DNA from: Candidatus Moraniibacteriota bacterium
GTDB lineage: Bacteria > Patescibacteriota > Minisyncoccia > Moranbacterales > UBA2206
Direction: 5' to 3'
DNA length: 36,781 bases
Assembly (NCBI GenBank): GCA_023261605.1
Contig: JAHFOP010000003.1
Location: 1-36,781 of the forward strand
The notes beneath the pieces are model-generated. The model had not been told where the DNA came from, did no database searches, and saw nothing but the letters and a program-made list of their open reading frames with translations. Below, one piece after another: positions 15,805-30,080 of this stretch. Each line of letters starts with the position of its first letter. Position 1 is the first letter of the stretch. The position numbers and the translations under genes were made by a program.

Positions 15805-17221
15805 ATTTAAGAAGCATCATCACTTCAAACTTTCGGGAAATGTTTCTCGCGCTTCTTTTGTTCATTCCCACTCCTCCGTTTTCAAAAGGACGATCCAGAT
15901 ATTCTTGAAATTCGTTCTTGCCTATTTTTGAAAGTAACCGATATTCAATTCCCTTATTCAAAGCCGCTACCTGACTCAAGGATAATTCTCCATTATATTC
16001 TTCCAAGAGAGATTTTCTCACTTCATCGATTGTTCTTTCAAATGAGCTCTTTTTATTTTCTCTAACACCATACGCTTCTTCCTGAATAAAATCAGCCTTA
16101 ACAGCCACCTCCTCAACAAGCGCGGAAAATTTAAGCGCCGTGTTTTTATTCAATCCCACTCCGCCACTTTCAATTGAAGAATCAAATATTTCAAAAAGCT
16201 CTTCTTGGCTGATCGTTTTCAACAAGCGCCTAGTAACCGCCGCCTCCATTATTTCAATCTCCCTGTAATCAAAGTTACTTAGAAGATAAGCCACCAACAT
16301 CTTAGCCTTAAAAGGAGCCATCATCACTTGCAGTTGCATAGAAGACAAATCCGGATAGGCTTGCAACAAAAGATCCAGCTCGGTTCTCTCCTTTTTTATC
16401 CCGCCATACTCATTTTCTCCGCGGATTATCTTTCTCTGTTCATTAATTTCTATTTTTATTATTTTTCCGTCTTTCATATAAACTATGCGATCGGCATAAA
16501 ACAACTGCTCGGGATTATGAGTTACCGCTACCACAGTTTTTTTCTCATGCAGATTAAGCGAATTGAAAATTTCCAAAACATTTTGCGCCGCCTCGCTGTC
16601 CAAATTACCCGTCGCTTCATCAGAAAGCAAAATTGGCGGATCATTTATAAGCGCTCTAGCAATTCCCACCCTTTGCTGTTGTCCGCCGGAAAGATCTTGC
16701 GGCAATCTATTTTCAAAAGAATCCACATTAAATTTTTTCAAAAGAATCCGACCATTTTTTTTTCTTTCCTGCGACCGAACCCTTTTGAAAATTTGTGGCA
16801 AGATAACATTATCCAATACACTTAGAGACGGAATAAGATTATACGTCTGAAAAACCATCCCGGTTTTTTTACGATGAAAGTTATTCAGATCGTTCGAAGA
16901 AAGATGCGCCAAATTTTGTCCGTCAACAAAAATTTTTCCCACGGTTGGAATTTCGAGCCCCGCGATAATGTTCAGAAGCGTTGACTTCCCCGACCCGGAT
17001 GGCCCAAAAAAAATAATATATTCTCCGGAATATATCTCGAGATTGATTCCATCCAACGCACGGGACTCATTGTTTTTTCCGGCAAAATAGATGACACTCA
17101 AATCTTTTATTCTGATGATCGGTTTTTCTTCAATTTCATTTTGGTCATCAGGAAGATCGACAGGAGGAGTTCCTGTATTTTTCAAATCAATTGTTGTGAG
17201 AAAAGGCGAATTCATAAGCAA
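15794..17221 (-). CDS. ABC transporter ATP-binding protein (MacB/LolD/FtsE-like) with ~215-aa duplicated C-terminal extension
   Basis: Track ORF of 475 aa. It has Walker A (GPSGSGKST), signature (LSGGQQQRVGIARAL) and Walker B (ILLSDEATGNLD). Residues ~260-475 are extra and contain two related ~50-aa units centred on GGVGLNKNTA and GGVGMNKRSA, 96 aa apart. Confidence 0.85.
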   Translation of the reverse strand: MLMNSPFLTTIDLKNTGTPPVDLPDDQNEIEEKPIIRIKDLSVIYFAGKNNESRALDGINLEIYSGEYIIFFGPSGSGKSTLLNIIAGLEIPTVGKIFVDGQNLAHLSSNDLNNFHRKKTGMVFQTYNLIPSLSVLDNVILPQIFKRVRSQERKKNGRILLKKFNVDSFENRLPQDLSGGQQQRVGIARALINDPPILLSDEATGNLDSEAAQNVLEIFNSLNLHEKKTVVAVTHNPEQLFYADRIVYMKDGKIIKIEINEQRKIIRGENEYGGIKKERTELDLLLQAYPDLSSMQLQVMMAPFKAKMLVAYLLSNFDYREIEIMEAAVTRRLLKTISQEELFEIFDSSIESGGVGLNKNTALKFSALVEEVAVKADFIQEEAYGVRENKKSSFERTIDEVRKSLLEEYNGELSLSQVAALNKGIEYRLLSKIGKNEFQEYLDRPFENGGVGMNKRSARNISRKFEVMMLLKFGR

Positions 17222-17313: not shown

Positions 17314-17326
17314 ATATTTTACCACA
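17314..17326 (-). promoter_or_regulatory. Putative extended -10 promoter TGTGGTAAAATAT upstream of the ABC/adhesin operon
   Basis: The minus strand reads TGTGGTAAAATAT, which fits TGn + TAAAAT. The identical 13-mer recurs at 27157-27169 in front of another operon. It lies just downstream of the terminator at 17362-17396. Confidence 0.4.
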
Positions 17327-17361: not shown

Positions 17362-17396
17362 TAAAAAGCGGCTTTCCTTTCGAAAAAGCCGCTTTT
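17362..17396 (-). terminator. Rho-independent terminator after the DUF916-like gene
   Basis: The minus-strand RNA reads AAAAGCGGCUUU-(9 nt loop)-AAAGCCGCUUUU followed by UAUU. The stem is perfect, and it sits 17 nt after the stop at 17414. Confidence 0.6.
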
Positions 17397-17413: not shown

Positions 17414-19123
17414 TTATTTTTTTGGCTCTTCCACAAAAAAGTAGGTGCCTATTGGGGAAAGATTATAGATGACAATATCATCTCCCAAATCACTTTTTTC
17501 TTGCATTGCGATATCTTCCTTAGCGCCCAAGTCATTTTTGAGCATTTCCGCCTCTTCTTTTTTTCCAGTCTTGTATTCTATTGTTGTCGCGGCGTGTTCT
17601 TGATTGAAAATCTTATCAGAAAATTCAACTGGATAACCGATGAGCTCTAACTTCTTTTTCAACTGCTCACTTGATTTTTGATCTGCTCCTTCAGGGGTAA
17701 CAATAGACACATGCACGCTCGATTTTTTAAATACTCCCGATTTAGTTTTCTCCGCTGTTTCCTTAGGTGGCGTTTCTTCATTCTTAGGCACGGCTATCTC
17801 TTGGTGAATGACACTACCTCGCCTGAATCTTATTCCCCAAGCCGCCCCAGCGCCCACCAAAATGAAAATGAGAACAATCAGGAAAACTCTCATTTTTTTC
17901 AGTCCTGATTTTTTTGAGCGCTCCATAATCGAAGGGATCAATTCGTCCACTTCTCTCGCCTGTCTTATAATTTCAATGTTTTTCTTATTGATTGGAATGA
18001 ATAATTTTTCTCCCTCTTTTATTTCGAAGGGCTCTCCAATATAATTCAATTTGGCTATTTTTCTCCAAGGAACAAAAAATCTCTGGCCCAAATCAGCCAG
18101 GTTATCGCCTAGTTTCACCTTATAAATTGGCATTTTCTCTTTAGCCGATTCCCTGAAATATAAAGCAATTAATCTCGCTAAAATAAACAGAACCGCTAAA
18201 ATAATCAGCAAAAATATAACTCGATAAGGCACCACCCAAATGACTAAATCTCTTTGGGCATGCCCCACTCCCTCCTCAAAAAAATCAACATTAGCATGTA
18301 CCGTATACCTTCCAAAAAAAGGCATTTTTTCCCAAATAATCGTCCCTTCGTTTATCTCTTCGCGAGGAAAAATGTTTCCCATTTGCCGATTAGGCAGATG
18401 CGCCACTGTCATACCGAAAATATTTTTTATATCCAACGTGACATTGGGGGAAATTCTAACATTCCCCTTGTTTTTTATTCCGGTAAAAAAAACTGTTCGC
18501 TTGTTTATATCCAAAAGATCTTTAATGAAACTCTTATTTCCAGATGGTTCTAATCGCCAATCGAAACGAGTGACCTCAAAATCTTTTTTCACTTCGCCGG
18601 GAACCGTTTCATAGATTCTCACGCCCACTCTTGTGATAATTTTAACACCCATTCCGGTCGATGCGCCCGCGGCATTGTCCATTTCTTGCACTACGATTCC
18701 ACCCATGTGATCCCCCACATCGGCATTATCCGGAATTTTTATGATAAAAGGCACTCTCTTTTCTGATTTGGGTGGAATTTCCAATTCATTGGCCGACAAC
18801 TCAACCCAGCTCCCCACATCTCCCTTCTTATCATCTTCGCTCAAAAGAGCAAAGCTTCCATCCGCTGTCGTCGTTGCATCAACTGCGTACAGCTTGACTA
18901 TCACGGTTTCATCCTTATTGTTCAACACTCTAACGGCATCAATCTTATCACGACCTAAATCCAATTTATACATAAACCAAGAGTCGGAAAATTCGACATT
19001 GGCATCGGCATTCCCCGGCAAAAGCCCCACCGATTCTGTATTAACCGCTCCAGCAGAATAAGGAAAGAATAAACAGGCCAAAAAAATCAACAGGCCCACT
19101 TGGGAATTTTTCAATCTAACCAT
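17414..19123 (-). CDS. CscA / WxL-interacting-protein-like surface protein (DUF916-like + DUF3324-like) fused to LysM and LytR_C-like modules
   Basis: The track ORF is 17414-19159. Met at 19123 gives the signal peptide MVRLKNSQVGLLIFLACLFFPYSAGA. The DUF916-like part reads WFMYKLDLGRDKIDAVRVLNNKDETVIVKLYAVDATTTADGSF...VPFIIKIPDNADVGDHMGGIVVQE, followed by a second beta-rich domain. Next come a TM helix (VIFLLIILAVLFILARLIALYF), a LysM-like segment (YKVKLGDNLADLGQRFFVPWRKIAKLNYIG...GEKLFIP) and a second TM helix. The C-terminus is LytR_C-like (VHVSIVTPEGADQKSSEQLKKKLELIGYPV...). Confidence 0.6.
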   Translation of the reverse strand: MVRLKNSQVGLLIFLACLFFPYSAGAVNTESVGLLPGNADANVEFSDSWFMYKLDLGRDKIDAVRVLNNKDETVIVKLYAVDATTTADGSFALLSEDDKKGDVGSWVELSANELEIPPKSEKRVPFIIKIPDNADVGDHMGGIVVQEMDNAAGASTGMGVKIITRVGVRIYETVPGEVKKDFEVTRFDWRLEPSGNKSFIKDLLDINKRTVFFTGIKNKGNVRISPNVTLDIKNIFGMTVAHLPNRQMGNIFPREEINEGTIIWEKMPFFGRYTVHANVDFFEEGVGHAQRDLVIWVVPYRVIFLLIILAVLFILARLIALYFRESAKEKMPIYKVKLGDNLADLGQRFFVPWRKIAKLNYIGEPFEIKEGEKLFIPINKKNIEIIRQAREVDELIPSIMERSKKSGLKKMRVFLIVLIFILVGAGAAWGIRFRRGSVIHQEIAVPKNEETPPKETAEKTKSGVFKKSSVHVSIVTPEGADQKSSEQLKKKLELIGYPVEFSDKIFNQEHAATTIEYKTGKKEEAEMLKNDLGAKEDIAMQEKSDLGDDIVIYNLSPIGTYFFVEEPKK

Positions 19124-19230
19124 TTTTTTAAATAAATAATTAAAGAAAAAACAAAACATGCGAACTTCTTTTCGCTAATTCAATTATACATCGGCTTTTT
19201 TCGTCTGTCCAATTTAAAAATCCCCTTGGC

Positions 19231-20751
19231 CTATTGGTTATCCGGACGAACAAAAATACAAGCCAATTCATCGCTATAAACCTCTCTCCAACCTAGATTT
19301 AAAAATACATATTTATTAGGAGGATTGTTGTAGACCAAAGCAAACCCTATGTCATATTTTTTTAGAATATCTTGCCAACCATCGTTAAACATTAAAACCT
19401 TATTGAAATCTTCAAATATTTTTTGATCCCCCATTTTCCAACTGGGCATTCTACCATCGATAAAAACTTTTTTCTCCGGATATTGCCAAATCAGAAAACC
19501 TCCCCAATTATATTCATTGAACATCCGACCATCAATCGGGTTACCTTTCAGATAGCGGGTAGCCGCGAGAGGATACTGTCCGTCCACGGCCAATTTTTCC
19601 AACGAAAAAGAAAGAGGGATTTCGCGTCCCAATCTTTGCTTCCCAACAAAAAATATAGCTAGTATTAGAAAAATTAAAAATGTCTTCTTTTGCACGATTA
19701 CGCTCAATTCCCTGCCAACCAAAGATTCTACGATGGAAATCCAAAGCGGAGTGCTAATAACCAAAAATAGAGGCATATGCCGCCAACTACTGAAACCCAG
19801 ATACAAAAAAACTACGCAGATTAACAAATAAGTATAATCAACGCGCCGAAAACTGAAAATCAAAAGTATCGACAAAAGCAAAAGATAAATTATGAATTGA
19901 TAACTCATGGGATTAGTCATCACCACTGGCATCCATTCATTAATGTTCGTTTTGGCATAACTATCAAAAATGGTATTAAAAATTTCGATATATGTCCTCC
20001 AGCCGTAAGGGTTGAAAAGTGTTGCCAGCGAGGAAATTAAAAAAACAGAAATCAATGGAATGATTTTATTTCCAGAAATGGAATTTTCCCTTAACCATTT
20101 TTCTGCTTTTAAAACCCGGCCATTCTTAAAAAACTTCTTCAAAATGATAGCCAGTGTCAATTTGAAAATTTCCAATCCGATAAAAACTCCCAAAAGGAAA
20201 AGCCCGACTGCAAAACCTCCATGCATATTAACCCAAACAAGAAAAATTAAAGGCAGGACATAAATTATTTTTGATTGATTATTTTTTCGAAATTTGAGAA
20301 TGATAAAAACAACCAAGGCGAGACCTAAAAGATTGAGCATTTGGGGCCGCACTCCCAAAACAGGAATACTGGCAATGACTCCCAAAATAGAGGAGATTAT
20401 TTTATACTCAATTTTTGCTTCCACTCCCCAAGAAACCAAAAGAAAAGCACCGGTGACTATCAGTGCGAAAATGACCGAAAGCATAAATAGATTGGTTTTT
20501 TGATATATCTCCGCCATTAGCACGTCCGTTACCCACTCATGCATAATGAGCGGAAAATTCGGCATCGTATAAGAAAACATATCTTTTTTGGCAACATGCA
20601 AATCATTCTCCAAAAGATATTGCCCGTCGCGAATATGCCAACCCATATCCGGATCAGTCGGGGGACGAAGCGCGATAAAGAAAATCAATAACACTCCCAA
20701 AAAAATAAAGATTGTTCGCGCATTTGTAAGTTTTTTTAAAAAATTTTTCAT
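19231..20751 (-). CDS. Polytopic membrane protein, GT-C-fold (ArnT/PMT-like) glycosyltransferase candidate
   Basis: Track ORF of 506 aa with more than 10 predicted TM helices. An acidic first-loop motif follows TM1 (PPTDPDMGWHIRDGQYLL...FSYT...HEW). The ~130-aa C-terminal domain is soluble. The functional call is tentative. Confidence 0.45.
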   Translation of the reverse strand: MKNFLKKLTNARTIFIFLGVLLIFFIALRPPTDPDMGWHIRDGQYLLENDLHVAKKDMFSYTMPNFPLIMHEWVTDVLMAEIYQKTNLFMLSVIFALIVTGAFLLVSWGVEAKIEYKIISSILGVIASIPVLGVRPQMLNLLGLALVVFIILKFRKNNQSKIIYVLPLIFLVWVNMHGGFAVGLFLLGVFIGLEIFKLTLAIILKKFFKNGRVLKAEKWLRENSISGNKIIPLISVFLISSLATLFNPYGWRTYIEIFNTIFDSYAKTNINEWMPVVMTNPMSYQFIIYLLLLSILLIFSFRRVDYTYLLICVVFLYLGFSSWRHMPLFLVISTPLWISIVESLVGRELSVIVQKKTFLIFLILAIFFVGKQRLGREIPLSFSLEKLAVDGQYPLAATRYLKGNPIDGRMFNEYNWGGFLIWQYPEKKVFIDGRMPSWKMGDQKIFEDFNKVLMFNDGWQDILKKYDIGFALVYNNPPNKYVFLNLGWREVYSDELACIFVRPDNQ

Positions 20752-20760
20752 AAATAAGTC

Positions 20761-21648
20761 CTACTTTTTCTTTTGATAGATAGCCAGAAATTCTCCCGTC
20801 AAAGGGTTGTTAAAGCAAACGTTTTTTATACTTGCGGAAAGATAAGGAAAAATAAATTTCAAAACAGTGCCAATCCCAAAAAACGAATACTTTTGAAAAT
20901 AAGCCGCGTAATAATTCAGGGAAAACTTTTTGCTATTATTTTTAAACACTGTTTCACTGAAATTCAATGGTCGCAACAGCCGACCAAGTGATTTTCGATT
21001 ATAATAAAAAATGTGTTCATATTTGTATTGAAACCAGTTTTTCCCCAAAATCTTGCGTGTCCAAGAATCACTATTGGGAGAAATGATGAAAAGGTGCCCA
21101 CCCGGCTTCAGAATGCGGGCAACTTCCTTCAACTCTTTTTTCGGATAAGGCAGATGTTCCAGCACATCCGTTAAGAAAATAATATCAAAAAAATCATCAG
21201 AAAAAGTTGCCTCGCAAATCCCCCCAGTCCTAATTCGACTGGGAAATTTTTGTTCTAGAATCTCGGCGGAAAAATTAGAAATTTCCGTTCCATAGCATTC
21301 GCATCCTTTTTCATTAAGACATTCCAAAAGATAACCGCCCCCGGCGCCGATATCCAAAACGAGACTTCCTTTCGGTTGGCATATCTTGGGAAAAATATTC
21401 CCCAATTGAGCCAAAAAAGCTTTCTTTTTAGCTTCGGAAATATATTCGAGATTTATCTTCTTTTTTGCCGTGTTCCAGGCCGCATAATCGTTACCATAAA
21501 TAAACGTCCGATCAGTTTCAAAATCTTCGGAAAAAATAACCCCACAAGCGAAACACTTTTCCAATTTCATCTTTCGACTCTCCTTCTCTTCACGCGTAGT
21601 TATATCAAATTGCCTAAGTTCGTTAGAATCGCAAATTGGACATTTCAT
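20761..21648 (-). CDS. Class I SAM-dependent methyltransferase with N-terminal zinc-ribbon
   Basis: Track ORF of 295 aa. It has CPICDS...CFACG cysteine pairs, SAM motif I (VLDIGAGGGYLLECL), and DIIFLTDVLEHLPYP...LKPGGHLFI. Its ATG overlaps the upstream stop (ATGA at 21645-21648). Confidence 0.8.
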   Translation of the reverse strand: MKCPICDSNELRQFDITTREEKESRKMKLEKCFACGVIFSEDFETDRTFIYGNDYAAWNTAKKKINLEYISEAKKKAFLAQLGNIFPKICQPKGSLVLDIGAGGGYLLECLNEKGCECYGTEISNFSAEILEQKFPSRIRTGGICEATFSDDFFDIIFLTDVLEHLPYPKKELKEVARILKPGGHLFIISPNSDSWTRKILGKNWFQYKYEHIFYYNRKSLGRLLRPLNFSETVFKNNSKKFSLNYYAAYFQKYSFFGIGTVLKFIFPYLSASIKNVCFNNPLTGEFLAIYQKKK

Positions 21649-23126
21649 ATTTTTTTTATGCGTTTAAAAACCAAGTATTCTCCATCATCAAAAATTTTTT
21701 TGAAGGCCGGATCATTTTCCAATGTCTCTATATCATTCTTCCATGTTCCAAAATCCATCTGTAAAGCGTAGTCAAAATCGAAAATCCTGCTACTAGACCC
21801 GGTATATGGATCAAAGCGATCCAAAATAATCCAGTCGGCTGTATCTTTTTTCAAGGGAAAACGATAAATTTCCCGCCGCTCGGAAAAATGCGGACCCAAA
21901 TTATGTTGCACCGAAATAGAGGCATCCGCGGGAACGATTTTCTCAATTTCCACGATTTTTTCGGCATGTCCACTAGGAACAAAATCTTCCCAGTAAGAAT
22001 TTCTCCCTAATGGGGAAACACTACTCAAATAGAAAACGCCGAAAGAAAAAATCAAAATAAATATAGCGAACATTCTTTCCAAAAAAACATCACCGGAAAA
22101 AAATCTTTTAAAAGTGATGATAGCGGAGAAAAAAACGAACGGAATAAAAATAGCGCTGTAATAAAAATAAACACTATAAGTCATTGAATAACTACTTAAA
22201 AGATTGATAAGCAAGAGTGGCAAGATAAGAACAATGGGCCAAGAATAAATCGCCAAAGAAAGAACCGGAGTGATTAGAAAGACCATATACCGCACACGAT
22301 CACCAACAAAAAGAACTCCTGCGATTTTATCCGGATAGATGAAAATATTTTTAGCTATCTCAAAAAAATTTCCACCCAGCCAACTGTAACGCGACGGGTA
22401 CAGCATGCTTCCACTCACAAGTGCTGCCACTCCGGTTGAAGAAAAAAATGGCATAGCAATCAGAATTACGCCCACAAAATAAGCGCCGGAACATGCGCTA
22501 ACCCAAAAACCCAACCAGCGCTTCTTTTTAATAAACATTAAATATATTCCCAGCATAAAAACCAAAAGTGCCAAATGCTCTTGAGAAATTACCAAAAGGA
22601 AAGAAAAGGAAAGAAAAGTTTTCCATTTTTCTTTTTCTAAAAAATAGAAAGCACCGGAGGCAAAAAAGACCGCCAACACCACCTCGTGAAAATCATATAG
22701 GATTCCGTTTTGCAAAAATGGATTAAGCAAAAACGCCAGTAAAAAAATTATTGCTAAGAAATTTTTCTTAAGTTTTTCTTTGGCAAAAAAATAAATGAAA
22801 AGTCCACTTGCTCCCGCCGCCGCCGCTTGGAAAAAAAGCAACCATTTCGGCGTAGCAAAAACAGCATAAAAAGGAACGAAAAAAAGCAAGATAGGGCTAA
22901 AATGAGCCCCTAAATAGTTTCTTTGATCAAGCATATTGGAGGAATTGTCAAAAAAATTTCCGTGAACCGTGTTCCAAATTACTTGATCATATGTCCCCAA
23001 ATCATTCAAATATGATTTCAACGCGTCGTGGCGCCCGAAAGAAAGCCCGGAAAAAATAATTACAAAAAAAACCACCAGCGCGACAGCGCAAAAATCAAGA
23101 TTAATTTTTTTGATTATTTTCAACAT
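21645..23126 (-). CDS. DUF2079-like polytopic membrane protein (putative GT-C-type glycosyltransferase)
   Basis: Track ORF of 493 aa. The N-terminal signature FGRHDALKSYLNDLGTYDQVIWNTVHGNFF...LGAHFSPILLFFVPFY resembles the DUF2079 family. It has about 11 TM helices and a C-terminal soluble domain. Confidence 0.6.
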   Translation of the reverse strand: MLKIIKKINLDFCAVALVVFFVIIFSGLSFGRHDALKSYLNDLGTYDQVIWNTVHGNFFDNSSNMLDQRNYLGAHFSPILLFFVPFYAVFATPKWLLFFQAAAAGASGLFIYFFAKEKLKKNFLAIIFLLAFLLNPFLQNGILYDFHEVVLAVFFASGAFYFLEKEKWKTFLSFSFLLVISQEHLALLVFMLGIYLMFIKKKRWLGFWVSACSGAYFVGVILIAMPFFSSTGVAALVSGSMLYPSRYSWLGGNFFEIAKNIFIYPDKIAGVLFVGDRVRYMVFLITPVLSLAIYSWPIVLILPLLLINLLSSYSMTYSVYFYYSAIFIPFVFFSAIITFKRFFSGDVFLERMFAIFILIFSFGVFYLSSVSPLGRNSYWEDFVPSGHAEKIVEIEKIVPADASISVQHNLGPHFSERREIYRFPLKKDTADWIILDRFDPYTGSSSRIFDFDYALQMDFGTWKNDIETLENDPAFKKIFDDGEYLVFKRIKKI

Positions 23127-23129
23127 AAA

Positions 23130-23849
23130 TTATTTTTTTCTGCTCTTTTTATCCGCAAACCGCAGCTTCAAAACCTTCCAAAAACTTTCCCCCACTATCG
23201 CCAAACTGAATTTGGATTTCCCCAAGGTTCGTTCGGTGAACACGATAGGAATCTCCTCGACTCTAAACCCGCGCTTTACCGCGTGATAAGTCGTTTCTAT
23301 CTGAAAAACATAACCAACGGCATCAATTTCCTTTCCTAATAAATATTCTACCACTTCGCGCCGATAGCATTTATATCCGGTTGTCAAATCATTAATAGCC
23401 ATTTTCAGAATAAATCGTGCGTATAGATTTCCGAAACTACTAACAAAGCGACGGCTGGCATTCCAATTGCTAATTTTTCCATTCGCTATATAACGCGACC
23501 CAATCACTAGATCGCACTGATTGACACGTGAAAGGAAAAGACTGATATCTTTCGGGTCATGGGAGAAATCCGCGTCTATTTCGAAAAAATAATCCGCGCC
23601 CTTTTCCAGTGCGTAGCGAAATCCTTCCAGATAGGCTGTCCCCAATCCCAACTTTCCTTTCCGGCGAATAAGATGGAGACTGGAATTGACCGTTTGGCAT
23701 TTTTCAACAATATCCGCAGTTCCATCGGGCGAATTATCATCCACCACCACAATCTCCAAATCAATTATTTTCAAATCAAAAATATGCTGAATTATTTTTT
23801 CAACATTTTCCTTTTCATTATACGTTGGCAAAATTACGGCTGTTTTCAC
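23130..23849 (-). CDS. Polyprenyl/dolichyl-phosphate sugar synthase, GT2 family (Dpm1/Ppm1-like)
   Basis: Track ORF of 239 aa with a GTG start. Diagnostic stretches are AVILPTYNEKENV, VVVDDNSPDGTADIV, GKLGLGTAYLEGF and FEIDADFSHDP. Confidence 0.85.
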   Translation of the reverse strand: MKTAVILPTYNEKENVEKIIQHIFDLKIIDLEIVVVDDNSPDGTADIVEKCQTVNSSLHLIRRKGKLGLGTAYLEGFRYALEKGADYFFEIDADFSHDPKDISLFLSRVNQCDLVIGSRYIANGKISNWNASRRFVSSFGNLYARFILKMAINDLTTGYKCYRREVVEYLLGKEIDAVGYVFQIETTYHAVKRGFRVEEIPIVFTERTLGKSKFSLAIVGESFWKVLKLRFADKKSRKK

Positions 23850-23871
23850 AAATAAAAAATACTACCCCTAA

Positions 23872-23901
23872 TCATTATACCTCATTATACCTCATTATAC
23901 C
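23872..23901 (-). promoter_or_regulatory. Three exact tandem 10-bp units (minus strand GGTATAATGA x3), i.e. three phased TATAAT hexamers, 24-44 nt upstream of the GT2 start
   Basis: Read directly as TCATTATACC x3 on the plus strand. The TATAAT hexamers are at 23874-79, 23884-89 and 23894-99. An SD-like GGGG lies at 23865-68. Confidence 0.55.
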
Positions 23902-23902
23902 G

Positions 23903-23935
23903 ATAAAAAACAAATGAAGCGCCTGAAAGCGCTTC
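23903..23935 (-). terminator. Rho-independent terminator after the WxL-like gene pair
   Basis: The minus-strand RNA reads GAAGCGC-UUUCAG-GCGCUUC followed by AUUUGUUUUUU. It sits 25 nt after the stop at 23961. Confidence 0.65.
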
Positions 23936-23960
23936 AAAAAAAAGTCTTTTAGAAAAATCA

Positions 23961-24533
23961 CTACTGTATCGTCATCGTCATTGTATTTTGATAAGTCCCG
24001 GCCACAAAGTTCGGATTTCCATTAAACACGACATTTACAGTAGTATTGGTTATTTTGTAATTGCCCATACCATTATTCGTTGAGGTATTGAAGAGAGTTC
24101 TCAAGGTGCTAAAATATCCAGCCGTTCCAACTGCTGTCCCAGTGTTAGATCCATTATCCGCGAAAGCTGCTCCCGGCGCCCAAGCGATGGCGGCGTTACT
24201 GATATTGTTCACGCCCGCTCCGCCAGTAGTCAAGTTATTCATTGAGGCGGTTACCGTCCAAGCCACTCCGGTTCCACGAAAGTCTCGGGCATTGACCACA
24301 TCCATGTTCGCCAAAGAGTTCGCCGCTACACCCAAAGTTTGGTTATTGAAAGCCAACGTAGCTGGAGCTTCCATTGACAGCGCGCCGGCAATCAGATTCT
24401 GAATCAAAGTGGTGTTAGTTCCAATCGCACTCGTGAAATCGACACTGACTGAACCGAACACCATAACGAACATAAACAAAACCACAAGTGTCGCCACTAT
24501 TTTTTGCTTTATTTTTTGTTTTTGTATTTGCAT
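23961..24533 (-). CDS. Secreted WxL-domain-like surface protein
   Basis: Track ORF of 190 aa with signal/anchor IVATLVVLFMFVMVFGSVSV. Its motifs are collinear with the Firmicute WxL domain: AGALSMEAPATLAFNNQTLG, VVNARDFRGTGVAWTVTA, GMGNY and the C-terminal AGTYQNTMTMTIQ. Confidence 0.6.
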   Translation of the reverse strand: MQIQKQKIKQKIVATLVVLFMFVMVFGSVSVDFTSAIGTNTTLIQNLIAGALSMEAPATLAFNNQTLGVAANSLANMDVVNARDFRGTGVAWTVTASMNNLTTGGAGVNNISNAAIAWAPGAAFADNGSNTGTAVGTAGYFSTLRTLFNTSTNNGMGNYKITNTTVNVVFNGNPNFVAGTYQNTMTMTIQ

Positions 24534-24649
24534 ATTTAATCGAAATCACATTCCTCTTTTAAGGAATATTTTACTATTTACGCCCTCTAAAAAAATCCCG
24601 CGCCCGTTAATACTATTATAAGCCAAATTCACATTCACACAATAGCCAA

Positions 24650-24664
24650 AGTTATCCACAGCCC
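24650..24664. promoter_or_regulatory. Second copy of AGTTATCCACARCCC (perfect DnaA-box 9-mer at 24652-24660), upstream of the 190-aa WxL-like gene
   Basis: Read directly; 14 of 15 positions match 6004-6018. In the minus sense it lies 31 nt upstream of a TATAAT (rc of ATTATA at 24615-24620). Confidence 0.4.
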
Positions 24665-24666
24665 TT

Positions 24667-25341
24667 TTATTGAATAGTGATTGTTACTGTTCCGGTAATA
24701 TTCTCATTAAAAAGAGAATTGAGATTGGTAAGCTTGACTGTGGGGCGGTTATTGTATATTCCCGCAGCTGTAACGTCACCACTGATAATACTTCTTGGCG
24801 TATTCAATGAATAATCCGAAGAAGCTGATTCAGAAATCCCAGTAGTGGGAGAAGTTATGGTATCTCCGCTAGCAACCGCGCCATCAGTTACTAAGAATAC
24901 ATTATTGTTAGCCAGATTGTTTTTAGTACTGGTCATATCGGTTGATTGCATTGTAAGAGTCCAGGGAACACTAGAGTTGTCGACGACCACGCATTCCTGA
25001 GAAGTGGAAAAAATATATTTACTATAATTATTAGCATTCCCCAAAGTATAATCTACCATATACACATTTGCCGCTTCGCAATTCAAGCCCAGTTGCGCTC
25101 CGCCGGAAACCATATGCCAAAAGGCGGTGTTGCTTTTATAGTTCGCACTTGTTTCAACGCCCACAGCCGACTCTCCCAATGAATCTCCCAAATTATAGCT
25201 ACTCGAACCGCTCAAATTTCCGCCCGAGTTAATCGTGTCGGCATTGATTTTATATGTCTCGCTACTCATCGCCCAAGAACAGGCCGGCAAAAACAGAAAC
25301 AGAAAAATCAGCACTTTTATTTTTCCAAAAAATTTCTTCAT
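24667..25341 (-). CDS. Secreted WxL-domain-like surface protein (second paralog)
   Basis: The track ORF is 24667-25395. Met at 25341 gives the signal peptide MKKFFGKIKVLIFLFLFLPACSWA and removes the overlap with the upstream gene. Motifs are VVVDNSSVPWTLTMQSTD, AAGIYNN and the C-terminal ITGTVTITIQ. Confidence 0.55.
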   Translation of the reverse strand: MKKFFGKIKVLIFLFLFLPACSWAMSSETYKINADTINSGGNLSGSSSYNLGDSLGESAVGVETSANYKSNTAFWHMVSGGAQLGLNCEAANVYMVDYTLGNANNYSKYIFSTSQECVVVDNSSVPWTLTMQSTDMTSTKNNLANNNVFLVTDGAVASGDTITSPTTGISESASSDYSLNTPRSIISGDVTAAGIYNNRPTVKLTNLNSLFNENITGTVTITIQ

Positions 25342-25354
25342 AAAATTGCAAAAA

Positions 25355-25693
25355 TTAAACATCCCCTTGATTCTCGAAAGATTGCTTTTCTCCATCCATT
25401 TTTCGAATTAAGTCCCTAGCGGTAAAAATTCCGGCTAAAAATAAAACAGAGAAAAACAGCTTTAAAAATAAACCGACTATCACAAAAACGGGTTTCTCTG
25501 CCAGACTGAAAAAATTTAAAAATTCCTCAAGGGTAAAAACAATAATCGCACCCAAGAAAAATTTATAAGAAATATCCAATTCTTTCTCTGTGCGCCACAC
25601 CACACCAAAAGAGAATACTATCGACAAGATGGACACCGCAATAACTAAGCTGTTTATAATTAAACTAAAATTAATTGTTTCAAAAATCATCAT
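25355..25693 (-). CDS. Small 3-TM membrane protein, unknown function
   Basis: Track ORF of 112 aa with three hydrophobic helices. It is tightly packed between neighbouring genes, with 11-13 nt gaps. Confidence 0.5.
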   Translation of the reverse strand: MMIFETINFSLIINSLVIAVSILSIVFSFGVVWRTEKELDISYKFFLGAIIVFTLEEFLNFFSLAEKPVFVIVGLFLKLFFSVLFLAGIFTARDLIRKMDGEKQSFENQGDV

Positions 25694-25704
25694 AGTTTTA
25701 AATT

Positions 25705-27135
25705 TTAACTGATAAATTTTTTATCCCGGAACATTTCTTCTGTTACTTGAATTATAGCATAACGGCTAGTTCGGTATTCATTCCCCAAAAGAATGAGAAA
25801 AATAATAAGTAAAAGCAAGAGCCAAAGAATCACCCAAAGTAAATTATCCATAACTTGTCCGACAGTGATGACAACGCCTCCGCCCAAATTGAACAGAGGA
25901 ATTTCTTCCAAAAGAAAGCTGTTATCAGCGGACAAAAACGCCCCCTTATAGGTAGTTTCCACCAATATTTTATATTTTCCGGCTTTGAAAGCACTAGGGA
26001 TCGAGAGAGTTTTTTTAATCGGAATTCCTTCAAAAAAACTAACGTCATCATAAGTTTCAAGAGCTATCTTCCCGTCTTCATCAATGAGAAGATAGGTTAA
26101 TTTCGCTTTAATAAATTTTTCATCAAAATTTTTCATCTTAGTTTCCAAGGACAGTGTTTTCCCAGTATAGGCGATATTGCCCCAATTTTTCACTTCAACC
26201 GAAAGATTGGGCCAGGATATCCCCGGCACCGGCAAAGAAGCCCCTGGTACAGTTGCGCCACTAGGCAAATTTTCTTTTTTCTTTTTTTCCTCTTTTTTGT
26301 TTTCACCTCCCGCCTCATCCCTGCTTATTCCAAATTTCAAGCTGGCGGTTTTGTTTCTCAATCCGTTCTCTGGATCAACGGCCGTGACCCAAAAAGTGTG
26401 GTCTCCATAGTTGAATCTTATTTCTGGTCGCCATTCCCAATATCCGTTTTCGTTAGCCTGCGTTTCAACAATCATATCCGTTTTCCCCAAAACGATAATT
26501 TCGATTTTGGCATGCGGCATATTGGTCGTCCCATAAAAAGTCGGCTGTCTTTCTTTGGTGCTAAGTTCTCCGGAAAAATCGAATAAATTTGTTTTGTGAA
26601 ATCGAGTGATAACACAAGTTGGATCAATTGGCTTGGGTGGCAATTCACAACCTAAAACAGTGCCGCTAGCTTCATCGGAAGCGGTTTGCCCCAATGAATT
26701 GAAGGCGGTGACTTTATATGAATGCGTTTCCGAAGTCAAAACCGCTTCGTCATGATATATGTTTTCCACTATTCCAGAAACTAAAGGGCTTCCGTCTCTT
26801 TCAATGTCAAAATAATCCATTTGGTCATCACTGGTCCAAGAAAGCGCCAAGTAGGGAGAATTGTTTTGGCAAAGAGGAAAAACTGAAAGAATCGGCTTAT
26901 TAGGTGGGCCCAAAATTTGCATAATTAGTGTGGTGGCGCCGGCCACCCGGCCATATTTTTTTTGCAAATCGTTTTTCAAAAATCCATTGCCCAAAGATAT
27001 TCCGACTGTAACATACAAAACAACTAACACGCCGGTTGCAATACCCAAATATTTCACTATTCGTCTAAATAGAAAAAATCGTCCTACTTTTTGCGGACTA
27101 AAAAAATGCTTGGCCATTTTTACAGTTTTTTTCAT
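25705..27135 (-). CDS. Bitopic (N- and C-terminal TM) surface protein with FN3-like and Ig-like domains
   Basis: The track ORF is 25705-27168 with a GTG start. That GTG lies inside the TGTGGTAAAATAT promoter motif, so ATG at 27135 (MKKTVKMAKHFF...) is more likely. It has an FN3-like segment (YLALSWTSDD...YKVTAFNSLGQ) and an Ig-like segment (PTFYGTTNMPHAKIEIIV...HTFWVTAVD). A K/E-rich linker, a beta-sandwich-like domain and a C-terminal TM helix (LLWVILWLLLLLIIFLILL) follow. Confidence 0.6.
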   Translation of the reverse strand: MKKTVKMAKHFFSPQKVGRFFLFRRIVKYLGIATGVLVVLYVTVGISLGNGFLKNDLQKKYGRVAGATTLIMQILGPPNKPILSVFPLCQNNSPYLALSWTSDDQMDYFDIERDGSPLVSGIVENIYHDEAVLTSETHSYKVTAFNSLGQTASDEASGTVLGCELPPKPIDPTCVITRFHKTNLFDFSGELSTKERQPTFYGTTNMPHAKIEIIVLGKTDMIVETQANENGYWEWRPEIRFNYGDHTFWVTAVDPENGLRNKTASLKFGISRDEAGGENKKEEKKKKENLPSGATVPGASLPVPGISWPNLSVEVKNWGNIAYTGKTLSLETKMKNFDEKFIKAKLTYLLIDEDGKIALETYDDVSFFEGIPIKKTLSIPSAFKAGKYKILVETTYKGAFLSADNSFLLEEIPLFNLGGGVVITVGQVMDNLLWVILWLLLLLIIFLILLGNEYRTSRYAIIQVTEEMFRDKKFIS

Positions 27136-27156
27136 AGCCCTAGGTCTTAAGTAGCC

Positions 27157-27169
27157 ATATTTTACCACA
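27157..27169 (-). promoter_or_regulatory. Putative extended -10 promoter TGTGGTAAAATAT for the surface-protein operon
   Basis: The 13-mer is identical to 17314-17326. It lies downstream of the gyrB terminator and about 22 nt upstream of ATG 27135. Confidence 0.4.
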
Positions 27170-30006: not shown

Positions 30007-30080
30007 AGCGGGGTAGAGCAGTCTGGTAGCTCGGGTGGCTCATAACCACCAGGTCGTCGGTTCGAATCCGACCCCCGCAA
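30007..30080 (+). tRNA. tRNA-Met (CAU), initiator-like
   Basis: Cloverleaf folded by hand: acceptor AGCGGGG/CCCCGCA with an unpaired A1-A72, D arm GAGC-AGTCTGGTA-GCTC, anticodon loop CTCATAA and T arm GTCGG-TTCGAAT-CCGAC. It is nearly collinear with E. coli tRNA-fMet (CGCGGGG...GCTCATAACC...GGTCGTCGGTTC.AATCCG.CCCCCGCAA). No CCA is encoded. Confidence 0.85.

What the first reader, a model, noticed from the sequence alone, without database searches (positions are those of the whole stretch)
17414..27169. csc/WxL-type cell-surface-complex locus interleaved with a lipid-linked glycosylation operon in a CPR-like genome
Two consecutive small secreted proteins (23961-24533 and 24667-25341) are collinear by eye with the Firmicute WxL domain over its whole length. 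The matching motifs are GALSMEAPATLAFNNQTLG, VVNARDFRGTGVAWTVTA / VVVDNSSVPWTLTMQ (the D-x-RG...GW-x-L/V core) and GMGNY. A C-terminal AGTYQNTMTMTIQ / ITGTVTITIQ sits where the second WxL motif normally lies, with the Trp replaced. About 5 kb away, 17414-19123 has the signal peptide + DUF916-like + DUF3324-like + TM layout of CscA / WxL-interacting proteins.

In Lactobacillales, Listeria and Enterococcus these families co-occur as csc clusters that build non-covalently wall-bound surface complexes. I am not aware of them being described outside Firmicutes. Here the set is split by four tightly packed glycosylation genes (junctions from a 4-nt overlap to a 9-nt gap). It is preceded by a bitopic FN3/Ig protein and a 3-TM protein. 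The result is a ~9.8-kb two-operon block bounded by a TGTGGTAAAATAT promoter and two terminators. This points to a glycosylated, wall-associated surface complex that could matter for host attachment in an epibiont.
Basis: partly seen in the sequence, partly recalled or inferred. Interest (0 to 1): 0.75.

Follow-up and report, generated by a model that had tools for sequence, protein, structure and literature searches.

The report
WxL/Pam-like glycosylated surface-fibre locus
An ultrasmall candidate-phyla-radiation bacterium (Moranbacteria) has its own version of the WxL surface-protein cluster of Gram-positive gut bacteria, with a sugar-attachment operon built into it, and the locus suggests that this cluster and the recently described CPR "Pam" pilus belong to one family.

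Summary
A (17414-19123) is a genuine WxL-interacting protein. Pfam DUF916 scores above threshold. Its predicted two-domain ectodomain best matches the crystal structures of Enterococcus faecium WxLIP, and next the chaperones of chaperone-usher pili. F (23961-24533) belongs to a divergent WxL family: 18 of 33 members hit Pfam WxL, all weakly, and the window protein is below threshold. Its model most resembles donor-strand-exchange pilins. G is a chimera of the N-terminal module of the CPR pilus protein PamT and a WxL-like C-terminal domain. In orthologous loci that domain ends 1,700-2,800-aa proteins, the "large WxL" layout. The order G/F – GT2 – sugar genes – methyltransferase – DUF2079 – 506-aa membrane protein – A recurs in seven related loci. 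A Pam-type operon elsewhere encodes a chaperone-like protein of A's family. My reading is a chaperone-assisted, strand-complementation surface fibre or complex, probably glycosylated, related to both WxL clusters and Pam pili. Polymerisation and the glycosylation target are inferred. It is a new variant of a known kind. Related clusters are widespread in CPR, and databases already annotate DUF916 there.

The parts
27156..27168 (-). Extended -10-like promoter motif TGTGGTAAAATAT upstream of gene I. It lies inside the longest possible ORF of I, so I probably starts at the ATG at 27135.
   Evidence: Sequence read. The motif recurs before two other transcription units (6 hits against 1.4 expected).
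25705..27168 (-). I: bitopic surface protein with an N-terminal signal/anchor, FN3-like and Big_13 Ig-like domains and a C-terminal TM helix. Possible anchor or terminator, comparable in layout to PamR.
   Evidence: Pfam Big_13 E=1.3e-6. No NCBIfam hit. Orthologues sit directly upstream of H-G in L004/L005 and L009. The PamR comparison rests on architecture only.
25355..25693 (-). H: 112-aa protein with three hydrophobic segments, function unknown, conserved between I and G.
   Evidence: Translation. Orthologues in L004/L005 and L009 (E 1e-24 to 1e-37). Only a weak DUF6077 hit.
24667..25362 (-). G: secreted 231-aa subunit. It has a PamT-type N-terminal module (about residues 30-85), then a WxL-like C-terminal beta domain with an invariant Cys pair, a VVDNSSVPWTLT motif and a C-terminal strand TGTVTITIQ. 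Candidate tip or adaptor subunit.
   Evidence: NCBIfam PamT E=2.8e-7; 20 of 25 family members hit PamT. hhalign against the PamT-like family gives E=2.5e-30. The C-domain occurs at the C-terminus of 673-2199-aa proteins. Relatives of that domain hit Pfam WxL at 1e-4 and 4e-3 and the F HMM at 1e-7. hhalign F against G gives E=5e-4, collinear to the last residue.
24566..24576 (-). Promoter-like motif TAGTAAAATAT about 30 nt upstream of the F start codon.
23961..24533 (-). F: secreted 190-aa divergent WxL-domain protein. It keeps the GxLSxxAP first-strand motif, the D-x-RG...W-x-V first WxL motif and GMGNY. The C-terminal strand is AGTYQNTMTMTIQ with the second Trp lost. The mature protein is 5% charged and 31% Asn+Thr. 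Candidate major subunit.
   Evidence: Pfam WxL E=1.3e-3 for the window protein; 18 of 33 family members at E<=0.01, best 5.3e-6. AlphaFold2 model pLDDT 86. The Foldseek PDB top 50 is dominated by donor-strand pilins (CupE, Csu, CfaB, PapE, FimA/F/G, the PapGII pilin domain, archaeal cannulae and bundling pili), with E 4e-3 to 5e-2 and TM 0.35-0.5. One to three tandem paralogues occur in related loci. It aligns collinearly with the small WxL-like proteins of other CPR clusters.
23915..23936 (-). Intrinsic terminator hairpin (9-bp stem, T-run) immediately after F.
   Evidence: sequence.
23872..23901 (-). Three perfect tandem copies of GGTATAATGA (three -10 boxes) between the F terminator and gene E. 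Presumed promoter region of the glycosylation operon.
   Evidence: period 10, 3.0 copies, 100% matches.
23130..23849 (-). E: GT2 glycosyltransferase of the polyprenyl-phosphate-sugar synthase type (Dpm1/GtrB/PpgS/AglJ-like).
   Evidence: Pfam Glycos_transf_2 E=4e-30. Best NCBIfam matches are PpgS 2.5e-19 and AglJ 8e-19, both below the equivalog cut-offs. It is fused to DUF2079 in L006.
21645..23126 (-). D: DUF2079 polytopic membrane protein, presumed extracytoplasmic glycosyltransferase that uses the lipid-linked sugar.
   Evidence: Pfam DUF2079 E=3e-66. Weak NCBIfam hit to 'cell surface glycopolymer formation protein'. Fused to the GT2 in L006. The glycosyltransferase role is inferred.
20761..21648 (-). 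C: SAM-dependent methyltransferase with an N-terminal Cys4 zinc-ribbon-like motif.
   Evidence: Methyltransf_23 E=2e-26. Conserved next to D in the related loci.
19231..20751 (-). B: 506-aa polytopic membrane protein matching no known family, always between D and A. Possibly a second membrane glycosyltransferase or polymerase.
   Evidence: No Pfam, NCBIfam or PDB sequence hit. Orthologues at E 1e-143 to 1e-196 in all seven related loci that reach that far. The role is inferred from position only.
19183..19211 (-). Promoter-like site TGGACA-17-TATAAT (11 of 12 matches) upstream of A.
   Evidence: The total count of such sites in the region is not above chance.
17414..19123 (-). A: WxL-interacting-protein homologue. 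It has a signal peptide, a DUF916 beta-sandwich, a second beta-sandwich and a TM helix. A lineage-specific extension follows: LysM, a second TM segment and a C-terminal alpha/beta domain. Proposed membrane-anchored chaperone or anchor that donates a strand to F and G.
   Evidence: Pfam WxLIP_PGBD 45.9 bits, above the gathering score, and LysM. All 62 homologues hit WxLIP_PGBD. The family profile hits the EfmWxLIP1 sequence at E=6e-6. The model has pLDDT 92.4, with two sandwiches plus a TM helix and a low-confidence loop before the family's most conserved strand TRVGVRIYETVPGE. Foldseek gives 9i25_C and 9i1y at E 1e-13 to 2e-14, then the CfaA, CsuC, CupB2, DraB, Caf1M, PapD and FimC chaperones and RbmA.
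17363..17396 (-). Terminator after A: an 11-bp perfect stem AAAGCGGCTTT/AAAGCCGCTTT, a 9-nt loop and a T-run. It is followed by the next TGGTAAAATAT promoter motif (17314-17324).
   Evidence: Read directly. The automatic scan missed it because the loop exceeds 8 nt.

Best explanation
This is the Moranbacteria version of a chaperone-assisted, strand-complementation surface-assembly system. The same system appears as csc/WxL-WxLIP clusters in Firmicutes and, in another CPR branch, as the Pam pilus.

Proposed mechanism:
1. F (major subunit, with its own promoter and terminator) and G (PamT-like N-module plus WxL-like domain, candidate tip or adaptor) are exported by Sec as incomplete beta-sandwiches.
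2. The membrane-anchored two-domain protein A captures them by inserting a beta-hairpin strand into the open sandwich. This was predicted for enterococcal WxLIP-WxL, and a WxLIP-long-WxL complex entry is now in the PDB.
3. The subunits are either passed on to one another to build a thin fibre, or held as a surface complex. Tethering would be by A (TM helices, LysM) and/or the bitopic FN3/Ig protein I.
4. The embedded operon makes a polyprenyl-phosphate sugar in the cytoplasm (E) and transfers it outside the membrane (D, perhaps B). A methyltransferase (C) modifies it.
5. The most likely target is the Asn/Thr/Ser-rich subunits themselves.

Shown: homology of A to WxLIP; the WxL-like nature of F; the chimeric nature of G; conserved synteny with the sugar genes; and the presence of an A-family protein in a Pam-type operon.

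Inferred: strand donation by A, polymerisation, the roles of I, H and B, the glycosylation target, and any role in host attachment.
For: A and WxLIP.
- Pfam DUF916 above threshold.
- The profile hits the EfmWxLIP1 sequence.
- The Foldseek top hits are the WxLIP crystal structures over about 280 columns, followed by chaperone-usher chaperones.

F.
- Recurrent Pfam WxL hits in the family.
- Collinear motifs with the small WxL-like proteins of other CPR clusters.
- The fold search returns mostly donor-strand pilins.

G.
- N-module homologous to the PamT family, E=2.5e-30; 20 of 25 members hit NCBIfam PamT.
- The C-domain ends giant proteins in L002 and L006 and in P0183, P0185 and P0186.
- The C-domain is bridged to F and to Pfam WxL.

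Link to Pam.
- In L011, a protein passing the NCBIfam Pam_pilin_C cut-off (137.9 bits against 55) is followed by a 363-aa pilin-like gene.
- Next comes a 322-aa signal-peptide/two-domain/TM protein that matches A's family at 113 bits; hhalign E=3.7e-25, probability 99.7.
- An FN3+TM protein follows that.

Literature.
- Hassan et al. 2023 (PMC10599100) predicted that a WxLIP hairpin strand completes the WxL sandwich.
- Troman et al. 2026 showed donor-strand-exchange Pam pili with TM-anchored PapD-like chaperones and an unexplained modification on PamA Ser356.

Synteny with the sugar genes.
- Seen in seven related loci.
- GT2 and DUF2079 are fused in L006, and GtrA-like genes occur in L004 and L009.

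Expression architecture of F: own promoter motif and a strong terminator.
Against: - F itself is below the Pfam WxL gathering score, and G has no WxL hit.
- The second W-x-L motif lacks its Trp.
- Neither F nor G hits the NCBIfam Pam_pilin_C model.
- Direct profile-profile comparison of the WxL-like and PamT-like C-domains is weak: E about 1e-3, probability 15-20%, against controls of 0.26-0.37.
- Foldseek E-values for F are marginal (>=1e-3, TM<=0.5). The WxL chain of 9i25 was not among the top 50.
- CPR WxL-like profiles find no WxL chain in PDB sequences.
- No two-domain PamA/B-type pilin is present in the window.
- Nothing here shows polymerisation, strand donation or glycosylation of the subunits.
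- The sugar pathway could instead decorate a wall polymer.
- The LysM of A sits between two TM segments, so it is predicted to be cytoplasmic. That is awkward for a wall-binding role.
Confidence: 0.6

Rival explanations
1. A static, non-polymeric wall-associated complex, as the reader proposed and as usually pictured for Firmicute csc/WxL clusters. F and G bind the wall non-covalently and are held one-to-one by A. No fibre is formed.
For: All WxL literature to date describes wall-bound complexes rather than pili. The PDB entry 9i25 is a WxLIP-long-WxL complex. A carries a LysM domain. F is single-domain and lacks the NTD-linker-CTD layout of PamA/B.
Against: The nearest folds to F are polymerising donor-strand pilins. 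G carries the PamT module, and an A-family gene sits in a Pam-type operon. F has the monocistronic promoter/terminator layout and the tandem paralogues typical of major structural subunits. The conserved mature N-terminus of F (TNTTLIQN) is modelled as coil with low to moderate confidence, as donor extensions often are.
Confidence: 0.3
2. The glycosylation genes build or decorate a cell-wall or membrane glycopolymer rather than the subunits. The WxL-like/WxLIP proteins are linked to them because they bind that polymer. This is not exclusive of either assembly model.
For: GT2 + GtrA + GT-C-type three-component systems classically modify teichoic acids, LPS or arabinogalactan (established knowledge). 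D's only NCBIfam hit is a 'cell surface glycopolymer formation' family. A has LysM and, faintly in homologues, LytR_C-like parts. The sugar-nucleotide gene content varies between loci, like O-antigen loci.
Against: The sugar genes are always sandwiched between the subunit genes and A. The subunits are rich in Asn/Thr/Ser; F has 7 N-x-S/T sites, 3 of them conserved in at least 60% of the family. PamA carries an unexplained modification.
Confidence: 0.3
3. The resemblances are chance. F and G are unrelated secreted beta-rich proteins, and the locus is not a functional unit.
For: The individual HMM and Foldseek scores for F and G are sub-threshold.
Against: There are repeated hits to the same Pfam model region in 18 of 33 family members. 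A has an above-threshold DUF916 hit and a top structural match to WxLIP. Gene order is conserved in seven related loci at 48-80% identity. The same small-WxL-like/WxLIP/large-WxL-like triad occurs in unrelated CPR loci L014-L016.
Confidence: 0.03

Closest known systems
csc / WxL-WxLIP clusters of Lactobacillales, Listeria and Enterococcus (Siezen 2006; Brinster 2007; Hassan & Williamson 2022/2023; PDB 9i1y, 9i25)
   Same: - A signal-peptide/DUF916/second Ig-like domain/TM protein (A), with sequence and fold matches to EfmWxLIP1.
- Small secreted proteins consisting only of a WxL-like domain (F).
- The WxL-like domain at the extreme C-terminus of larger proteins (G here; giant proteins in orthologous loci).
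- All components lie within four genes of each other.
- The first WxL motif context D-x-RG..GW-x-[LV] and the GxLxL..P first strand are kept.
   Different: - The second W-x-L motif has lost its Trp.
- Pfam WxL scores are below threshold, and the DUF3324 HMM is silent.
- A has a roughly 240-aa extension (LysM, second TM segment, C-terminal domain).
- Four glycosylation genes sit inside the cluster.
- No LPXTG partner was seen.
- G carries a PamT-type N-terminal module.
- The host is a CPR bacterium.
Pam pilus of Candidatus Mycosynbacter amalyticus and other CPR (Troman et al., bioRxiv 10.64898/2026.03.03.709456)
   Same: - CPR host, Sec-exported subunits and no usher.
- A membrane-anchored two-domain PapD-like chaperone with a C-terminal TM helix. 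A protein of A's family sits in a Pam_pilin_C-positive operon, L011.
- A PamT-type N-terminal module in G.
- An FN3/Ig protein with a C-terminal TM (I against PamR).
- A conserved Cys pair in G.
- A likely post-translational modification of the subunits.
   Different: - No two-domain PamA/B-type pilin in the window.
- F and G do not hit the NCBIfam Pam_pilin_C model, and G scores 30 bits against the 240-bit PamT cut-off.
- There are no ATP-synthase, CorB or MFS neighbours. Instead the flanks are gyrB on one side and a MacB-type ABC transporter on the other.
- The glycosylation operon is embedded.
- Pam pilins were reported mainly in Saccharimonadia and Microgenomatia, not Moranbacteria.
Chaperone-usher pili of Gram-negative bacteria (Pap, Fim, Csu, CFA/I, Caf1)
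   Same: Fold-level resemblance of A to the periplasmic chaperones and of F to the pilin subunits. The presumed principle is the same: completing an incomplete Ig-like fold with a donated strand.
   Different: There is no usher and no outer membrane. The chaperone is membrane-anchored. There is no detectable sequence similarity: the SafA hit at E=0.011 disappeared when the family profile was used.
Three-component lipid-linked extracytoplasmic glycosylation (GtrA/GtrB/GtrC, CsbB/YfhO/GtcA, Ppm1/Pmt)
   Same: A Dpm1/GtrB-like GT2 (E) next to a large polytopic membrane protein (D, DUF2079). The two are fused in L006. GtrA-family genes occur in L004 and L009.
   Different: No GtrA in this window. 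There is an extra unknown 506-aa membrane protein (B) and a methyltransferase (C). The acceptor is unknown.

Membership tests
WxL-interacting protein (WxLIP / CscA; DUF916+DUF3324+TM) | DUF916 (WxLIP_PGBD) domain after a signal peptide | tested here: met
   Pfam PF06030 E=6.9e-12, 45.9 bits against a gathering score of 27.3. All 62 homologues hit it. The family profile hits the EfmWxLIP1 chain at E=6e-6.
WxL-interacting protein (WxLIP / CscA; DUF916+DUF3324+TM) | Second Ig-like domain (DUF3324 / WxLIP_HBD) directly after DUF916 | tested here: inconclusive
   No PF11797 hit in A or in any of 62 homologues. The model does have a second beta-sandwich. Foldseek aligns 277-282 columns to the 251-267-residue WxLIP crystal chains, so both domains are covered (TMt 0.62-0.68).
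WxL-interacting protein (WxLIP / CscA; DUF916+DUF3324+TM) | C-terminal transmembrane helix after the two domains | tested here: met
   The model has a helix at construct residues 300-327, the hydrophobic stretch VIFLLIILAVLFILARLIALYF. Here it is followed by an extra LysM-TM-domain extension not seen in Firmicutes.
WxL domain (PF13731) | Match to the Pfam WxL model at or above the gathering score | tested here: not met
   F scores 19.2 bits against 25 (E=1.3e-3). G has no hit. At family level, 18 of 33 F homologues hit at E<=0.01, best 5.3e-6. Relatives of the G C-domain hit at 1e-4 and 4e-3. So these are WxL-like and divergent, not certified members.
WxL domain (PF13731) | Two Trp-x-Leu motifs, the second near the C-terminus | tested here: not met
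   The first motif is present as W-T-V in F (nearly invariant W92) and W-T-L in G (invariant W). The second is replaced by T-M-T-I-Q in F and T-I-T-I-Q in G.
WxL domain (PF13731) | Domain located at the extreme C-terminus; exists in small (domain-only) and large (multi-domain) proteins | tested here: met
   F is domain-only. The G C-domain ends the protein. The same domain ends 673-, 1723-, 1909-, 2199- and about 2769-aa proteins.
WxL domain (PF13731) | Fold equivalent to a solved WxL domain (9i25) | tested here: inconclusive
   The WxL chain of 9i25 is not in the Foldseek top 50 for the F model. It is not found by sequence profiles either. No direct superposition was possible with these tools.
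WxL cluster (Hassan & Williamson definition: at least 1 WxLIP and at least 2 WxL proteins, neighbours no more than 4 genes apart) | Gene-cluster composition and spacing | tested here: met
   G and F are adjacent, and exactly four genes (E, D, C, B) separate F from A. This holds if the WxL-like domains are accepted. The definition is read.
Pam pilus system (NCBIfam NF058579 PamT, NF058581 Pam_pilin_C; Troman et al. 2026) | Pilin with a Pam_pilin_C domain | tested here: not met
   No NF058581 hit for F or G at E<=1. Isolated C-domain profile comparisons reach only E about 1e-3.
Pam pilus system (NCBIfam NF058579 PamT, NF058581 Pam_pilin_C; Troman et al. 2026) | PamT (tip pilin) equivalog | tested here: not met
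   G scores 30 bits against the 240-bit cut-off, over the N-terminal module only. The N-module plus the first strands are clearly homologous to the PamT-like family (hhalign E=2.5e-30).
Pam pilus system (NCBIfam NF058579 PamT, NF058581 Pam_pilin_C; Troman et al. 2026) | Membrane-anchored PapD/FimC-like chaperone (PamC/D) | tested here: inconclusive
   A has that architecture and that fold neighbourhood. A member of A's family sits in the Pam_pilin_C-positive operon L011. The M. amalyticus PamC/D sequences themselves could not be obtained for comparison.
Pam pilus system (NCBIfam NF058579 PamT, NF058581 Pam_pilin_C; Troman et al. 2026) | Donor-strand-exchange polymerisation into filaments | not testable with these tools
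   This needs multimer prediction or microscopy. Only single-chain predictions were available.
Three-component lipid-linked glycosylation | Polyprenyl-phosphate sugar synthase (GT2) plus a polytopic extracytoplasmic transferase plus a GtrA-type flippase | tested here: inconclusive
   GT2 and DUF2079 are present and are fused in L006. GtrA is absent from the window but present in L004 and L009. Enzyme activities and the acceptor were not tested.

The most novel reading that the evidence does not exclude
The WxL/WxLIP clusters of Firmicutes and the Pam pili of CPR are one ancient, usher-less chaperone/donor-strand assembly superfamily of single-membrane bacteria. WxLIP would equal the Pam chaperone, and the WxL domain would equal the pilin acceptor domain. 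This Moranbacteria locus would then be a third branch, in which a single-domain WxL-like subunit polymerises into a glycosylated fibre whose dedicated glycosylation machinery is encoded inside the operon. It would follow that enterococcal, listerial and lactobacillar WxL proteins may also form strand-exchanged polymers.
Probability: 0.35. Interest if true: 0.8.

Novelty: new variant of a known kind. Interest (0 to 1): 0.62.

Why it matters
CPR bacteria live attached to other cells, and their surface structures are mostly unannotated.

- **Annotation.** The analysis gives a family assignment to a conserved nine-gene surface locus of Moranbacteria. A profile of G finds 1,562 related proteins, mostly through its PamT-like N-module. 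Compact WxL-like/WxLIP clusters turn up in several other CPR loci.
- **Two literatures joined.** It connects WxL clusters, known as virulence and adhesion factors of Enterococcus, Listeria and Lactobacillus, with the newly solved Pam pilus of CPR. If the link holds, the crystal structures of WxLIP-WxL and the cryo-EM structures of Pam filaments explain each other. The question "do WxL proteins polymerise?" then becomes directly testable.
- **Glycosylation.** The embedded glycosylation operon offers a candidate machinery for pilin modification. An unexplained modification was seen on PamA.

Tried and rejected
**PDB sequence searches**
- F alone gave a weak SafA pilin hit (E=0.011). It vanished with the family profile, so I treat it as chance.
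- G's family profile gave only chance-level phage sheath hits.
- A broader CPR WxL-like profile (A6) found no WxL chain in the PDB.
- B has no PDB, Pfam or NCBIfam relative.

**Family models**
- NCBIfam on A's 62 homologues found no Pam chaperone model, only LysM-driven hits.
- Pfam sees no DUF916 in the L011 chaperone-like protein even at E<=10. The link rests on my CPR-specific profile.

**Profile comparisons and collection scans**
- Isolated C-domain profile comparisons (WxL-like against PamT-like) stayed weak.
- The genome-contig scan with the F profile returned only three loci, all Moranbacteria MAGs, so it could not give a broad taxonomic survey.
- Look-ups of P0213 and P0301 landed on contigs of about 1.6 kb. 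L012 was uninformative. L013 showed only an adjacent A-family gene.

**Other checks**
- The sigma-70 consensus scan is not enriched over shuffles (23 against 24.1), so only the recurrent TGGTAAAATAT motif is used as promoter evidence.
- Rfam found only the three tRNAs.
- I considered that the ORF-poor first 5 kb might be non-coding. It is a giant ORF that runs off the window edge.
- LytR_C in A was not confirmed for the window protein. It is faint or 0.003 in two homologues only.

Full report
**What is there**

The region 17.4-27.2 kb carries nine co-directional minus-strand genes:
- I: bitopic FN3/Big_13 protein.
- H: 112 aa with three hydrophobic segments.
- G: 231-242 aa, secreted.
- F: 190 aa, secreted.
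- E: GT2 glycosyltransferase.
- D: DUF2079.
- C: SAM methyltransferase.
- B: 506-aa polytopic membrane protein with no known family.
- A: 569-581 aa.

All the quoted peptide motifs are in the translations. The window comes from a Candidatus Moranbacteria-like genome. The only species-representative genomes with F relatives are three MAGs: two titled Moranbacteria or Moraniibacteriota and one "uncultured bacterium". One A homologue is named Moranbacteria by NCBI.

**Protein A is a WxL-interacting protein**

- Pfam WxLIP_PGBD (DUF916) scores 45.9 bits (E=6.9e-12, gathering score 27.3), and LysM is significant.
- All 62 aligned homologues hit DUF916. None hits DUF3324.
- A profile of the family finds the sequence of EfmWxLIP1 in the PDB at E=6e-6.
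- The AlphaFold2 model of the ectodomain is confident (pLDDT 92.4). It shows two beta-sandwiches followed by a TM helix.
- Its best PDB matches are "WxLIP from Enterococcus faecium locus A bound to long WxL" (9i25_C, E=2e-14, TM 0.68 on the target) and free WxLIP (9i1y, E=1e-13). Both align over about 280 columns.
- Next come RbmA and a long series of chaperone-usher chaperones: CfaA, CsuC, CupB2, DraB, Caf1M, PapD and FimC, at E 1e-9 to 1e-6.
The second domain is recognisable only by fold.
- The one low-confidence loop (construct residues about 150-160) precedes the family's most conserved strand, TRVGVRIYETVPGE. That is where Hassan et al. predicted the WxLIP hairpin that completes the WxL sandwich (PMC10599100).
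- Beyond the first TM helix, A carries a lineage-specific LysM, a second hydrophobic segment and a C-terminal domain. LytR_C is at most faint, and only in homologues.

**Protein F is a divergent WxL-domain protein with a pilin-like fold**

- F alone is sub-threshold for Pfam WxL (19.2 bits, E=1.3e-3). However, 18 of 33 family members hit the same model, best 5.3e-6.
- F aligns collinearly with the small WxL-like proteins found next to DUF916 genes in other CPR loci. Invariant positions include G-x-L in the first strand, D-x-R, a nearly invariant Trp, G-x-G and the C-terminal G-x-Y.
- The Trp of the second W-x-L motif is missing, so F is WxL-like rather than a certified member.
- Its model (pLDDT 86) has no significant PDB match at E<=1e-3. 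The top 50 is dominated by donor-strand-exchange subunits: CupE, Csu, CfaB, PapE, PapA, FimA/F/G/I, the PapGII pilin domain, and the archaeal cannulae and bundling pili. These score E 4e-3 to 5e-2 and TM 0.35-0.5.
- The WxL chain of 9i25 did not appear in that list, and sequence profiles do not reach it. I record this as a negative result.

**Protein G is a chimera that bridges two literatures**

- NCBIfam's "CPR-type pilus protein PamT" hits G's N-terminal part at E=2.8e-7, far below the equivalog cut-off. Twenty of 25 G homologues hit it too.
- An exhaustive profile search found 1,562 relatives and showed that G has two modules.
- The N-module (MSSxxYxIxxDxxNxGG..SxSxNY..D.xGE..G...SxNY...GF) heads most of the listed hits, many of them proteins of about 250 aa. 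All 53 that I sampled hit PamT, and 11 hit the certified Pam_pilin_C domain model. hhalign of G's family against them gives E=2.5e-30. The alignment runs through the N-module into the first strands of the C-domain, including the W/Y-x-L position.
- The C-module instead recurs at the extreme C-terminus of proteins of 673, 1723, 1909 and 2199 aa. That is exactly the "large WxL protein" layout.
- Relatives of this C-module hit Pfam WxL at 1e-4 and 4e-3 and the F-family HMM at 1e-7 to 1e-5. P0301 combines the N-module with an F-type domain (3e-10).
- F and G C-domains align collinearly to their last residue (hhalign E=5e-4).
- Direct comparison of the WxL-like and PamT-like C-domains alone is only suggestive. 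E is about 1e-3, against 0.26-0.37 for a reversed control and an unrelated control.

**The locus is conserved, sugar genes included**

- Seven related loci were examined with precomputed Pfam tables and my own HMM/phmmer annotation: L001/L004/L005 (one gene set), L002, L003, L006, L008, L009 and L010.
- They keep the order [I-H-] G, F (one to three tandem copies), GT2, a variable set of sugar-nucleotide genes, methyltransferase, DUF2079, B and A.
- The variable sugar-nucleotide genes include epimerase, aminotransferase, ATP-grasp, radical SAM and GtrA.
- In L002 and L006 the small G is replaced by a protein of about 2,769 or 1,727 aa ending in the G C-domain.
- In L006 the GT2 and DUF2079 are fused into one protein. 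This is a Rosetta-stone argument that E and D act in one pathway.
- Exactly four genes separate F from A, so the published operational definition of a WxL cluster is met if the WxL-like domains are accepted.

**Transcription signals**

- The TGGTAAAATAT motif precedes I, and a one-mismatch copy precedes F. It also precedes the next operon downstream of A (6 hits against 1.4 expected).
- F is followed by a strong terminator.
- Three perfect tandem GGTATAATGA copies precede E.
- An 11-of-12 sigma-70-like site precedes A, and a hairpin terminator follows A.
- I count about four transcription units rather than two. F is monocistronic, as major structural subunits often are.

**Relation to known systems**

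- In other CPR contigs the minimal canonical layout appears next to rnpA-yidC-dnaA. It is small WxL-like (about 195 aa), WxLIP_PGBD (340-350 aa), then small proteins or a protein of about 500 aa with a C-terminal WxL-like domain. Weak Pfam WxL hits are on record there.
- The family is therefore widespread in CPR. NCBI already names [quoted passage not shown].
- I found no paper in the searchable library that links WxL or DUF916 to CPR, or WxL to chaperone-usher or donor-strand systems.
- A 2026 preprint solved the Pam pili of Ca. Mycosynbacter amalyticus. They are donor-strand-exchange filaments with PapD/FimC-like chaperones that carry a C-terminal TM helix, a tip protein PamT and an FnIII+TM protein PamR. 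It never mentions WxL, DUF916 or glycosylation.
- On contig L011, a PamT-like protein passes the Pam_pilin_C cut-off (137.9 bits against 55). It is followed by a 363-aa pilin-like gene.
- After that comes a 322-aa signal-peptide/two-domain/TM protein that matches A's family at 113 bits (hhalign E=3.7e-25, probability 99.7). Pfam itself detects nothing in it. An FN3+TM protein follows.
- This is the strongest evidence that Pam-type chaperones and WxLIPs are one family. It rests on one locus. The M. amalyticus sequences themselves could not be retrieved.

**Mechanism (best estimate)**

- F and G are exported by Sec as incomplete sandwiches. A, anchored in the membrane, donates a hairpin strand to stabilise them.
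- They are then either handed from one to another to build a thin fibre (G distal, F as the repeating unit, I and/or A at the base) or kept as a surface complex.
- E makes a polyprenyl-phosphate sugar. D, and perhaps B, transfers it outside the membrane, and C methylates it.
- The subunits are plausible acceptors. Mature F is 31% Asn+Thr and about 5% charged, with 7 N-x-S/T sites, three of them conserved. A wall polymer cannot be excluded as the acceptor.
- Shown: the homologies and the synteny.
- Inferred: strand donation, polymerisation, the acceptor, and any role in host attachment.
- One oddity: the LysM of A lies between two hydrophobic segments and is therefore predicted to be cytoplasmic.

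**Verdict**

- Its interpretation is supported, with two refinements. G is PamT-like at its N-terminus, and the system is as likely a Pam-like fibre as a static complex.
- It is a new variant of a known kind: a CPR WxL/WxLIP-type cluster with an embedded, conserved glycosylation operon and an extended WxLIP.
- Its main interest is that it links the Firmicute WxL clusters to the CPR Pam pilus.

Noticed in passing
window 3-5468 (-) and 5485-5955 (-): The ORF-poor first 5 kb is a single ORF of at least 1,822 aa that runs off the window edge. Its N-terminus (AAITKQINYQGKLTD...) resembles the last gene of the Pam-type contig L011, which hits NCBIfam 'mosaic adhesive trimer' fibre (Bdello_MAT_N). 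The 156-aa gene upstream (MAEAAKISPYEQGYLSLLARRG...) resembles the L011 141-aa gene. This two-gene fibre module may be the 'tail fibre-like protein' that the Pam preprint reports near pam operons.
   Followed up: partly
window 23872-23901: Three perfect tandem copies of GGTATAATGA, each holding a consensus -10 box. They lie between the F terminator and the first glycosylation gene. Possibly a phase-variable or copy-number-tunable promoter.
   Followed up: no
window 27157-27167, 24566-24576, 17314-17324 (all -): A recurrent extended -10-like motif T[GA]GTAAAATAT sits before three transcription units: I, F and the downstream ABC operon. It is probably the promoter consensus of this genome.
   Followed up: partly
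window 17414-18200 (-), residues about 313-581 of A: The LysM domain of A lies between two hydrophobic segments (about 313-335 and 425-447), with basic residues on both flanks. It is therefore predicted to be cytoplasmic, which is odd for a peptidoglycan-binding module. The arrangement is conserved in most Moranbacteria homologues.
   Followed up: no
window 6795-17221 (-): Directly downstream of A are a MacB-type ABC transporter (ATPase with a long C-terminal extension, then an FtsX/MacB_PCD permease) and a 2,579-aa secreted protein made of FN3/Pur_ac_phosph_N-type repeats. A TPR protein follows. Together with the finding, this makes the window one large cell-surface island.
   Followed up: partly
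window 34885-36555 (-): Two type IV pilin-like genes: PilX_N + Fib_succ_major, and an N_methyl prepilin motif. The genome therefore also encodes type IV pilus components near this locus.
   Followed up: no
L006 10693-12855: GT2 and DUF2079 are fused into one 720-aa protein in a related Moranbacteria genome. This supports a direct functional link between the lipid-sugar synthase and DUF2079.
   Followed up: partly
L014, L015, L016 (about 7300-10700 in each): Compact small-WxL-like / WxLIP_PGBD / small- or large-WxL-like clusters lie next to rnpA-yidC and dnaA in other Patescibacteria contigs, a conserved origin-proximal position.
   Followed up: partly
window 30007-30263 (+): Two tRNA-Met genes and one tRNA-Asp gene lie on the strand opposite to all the surrounding protein genes.
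   Followed up: no
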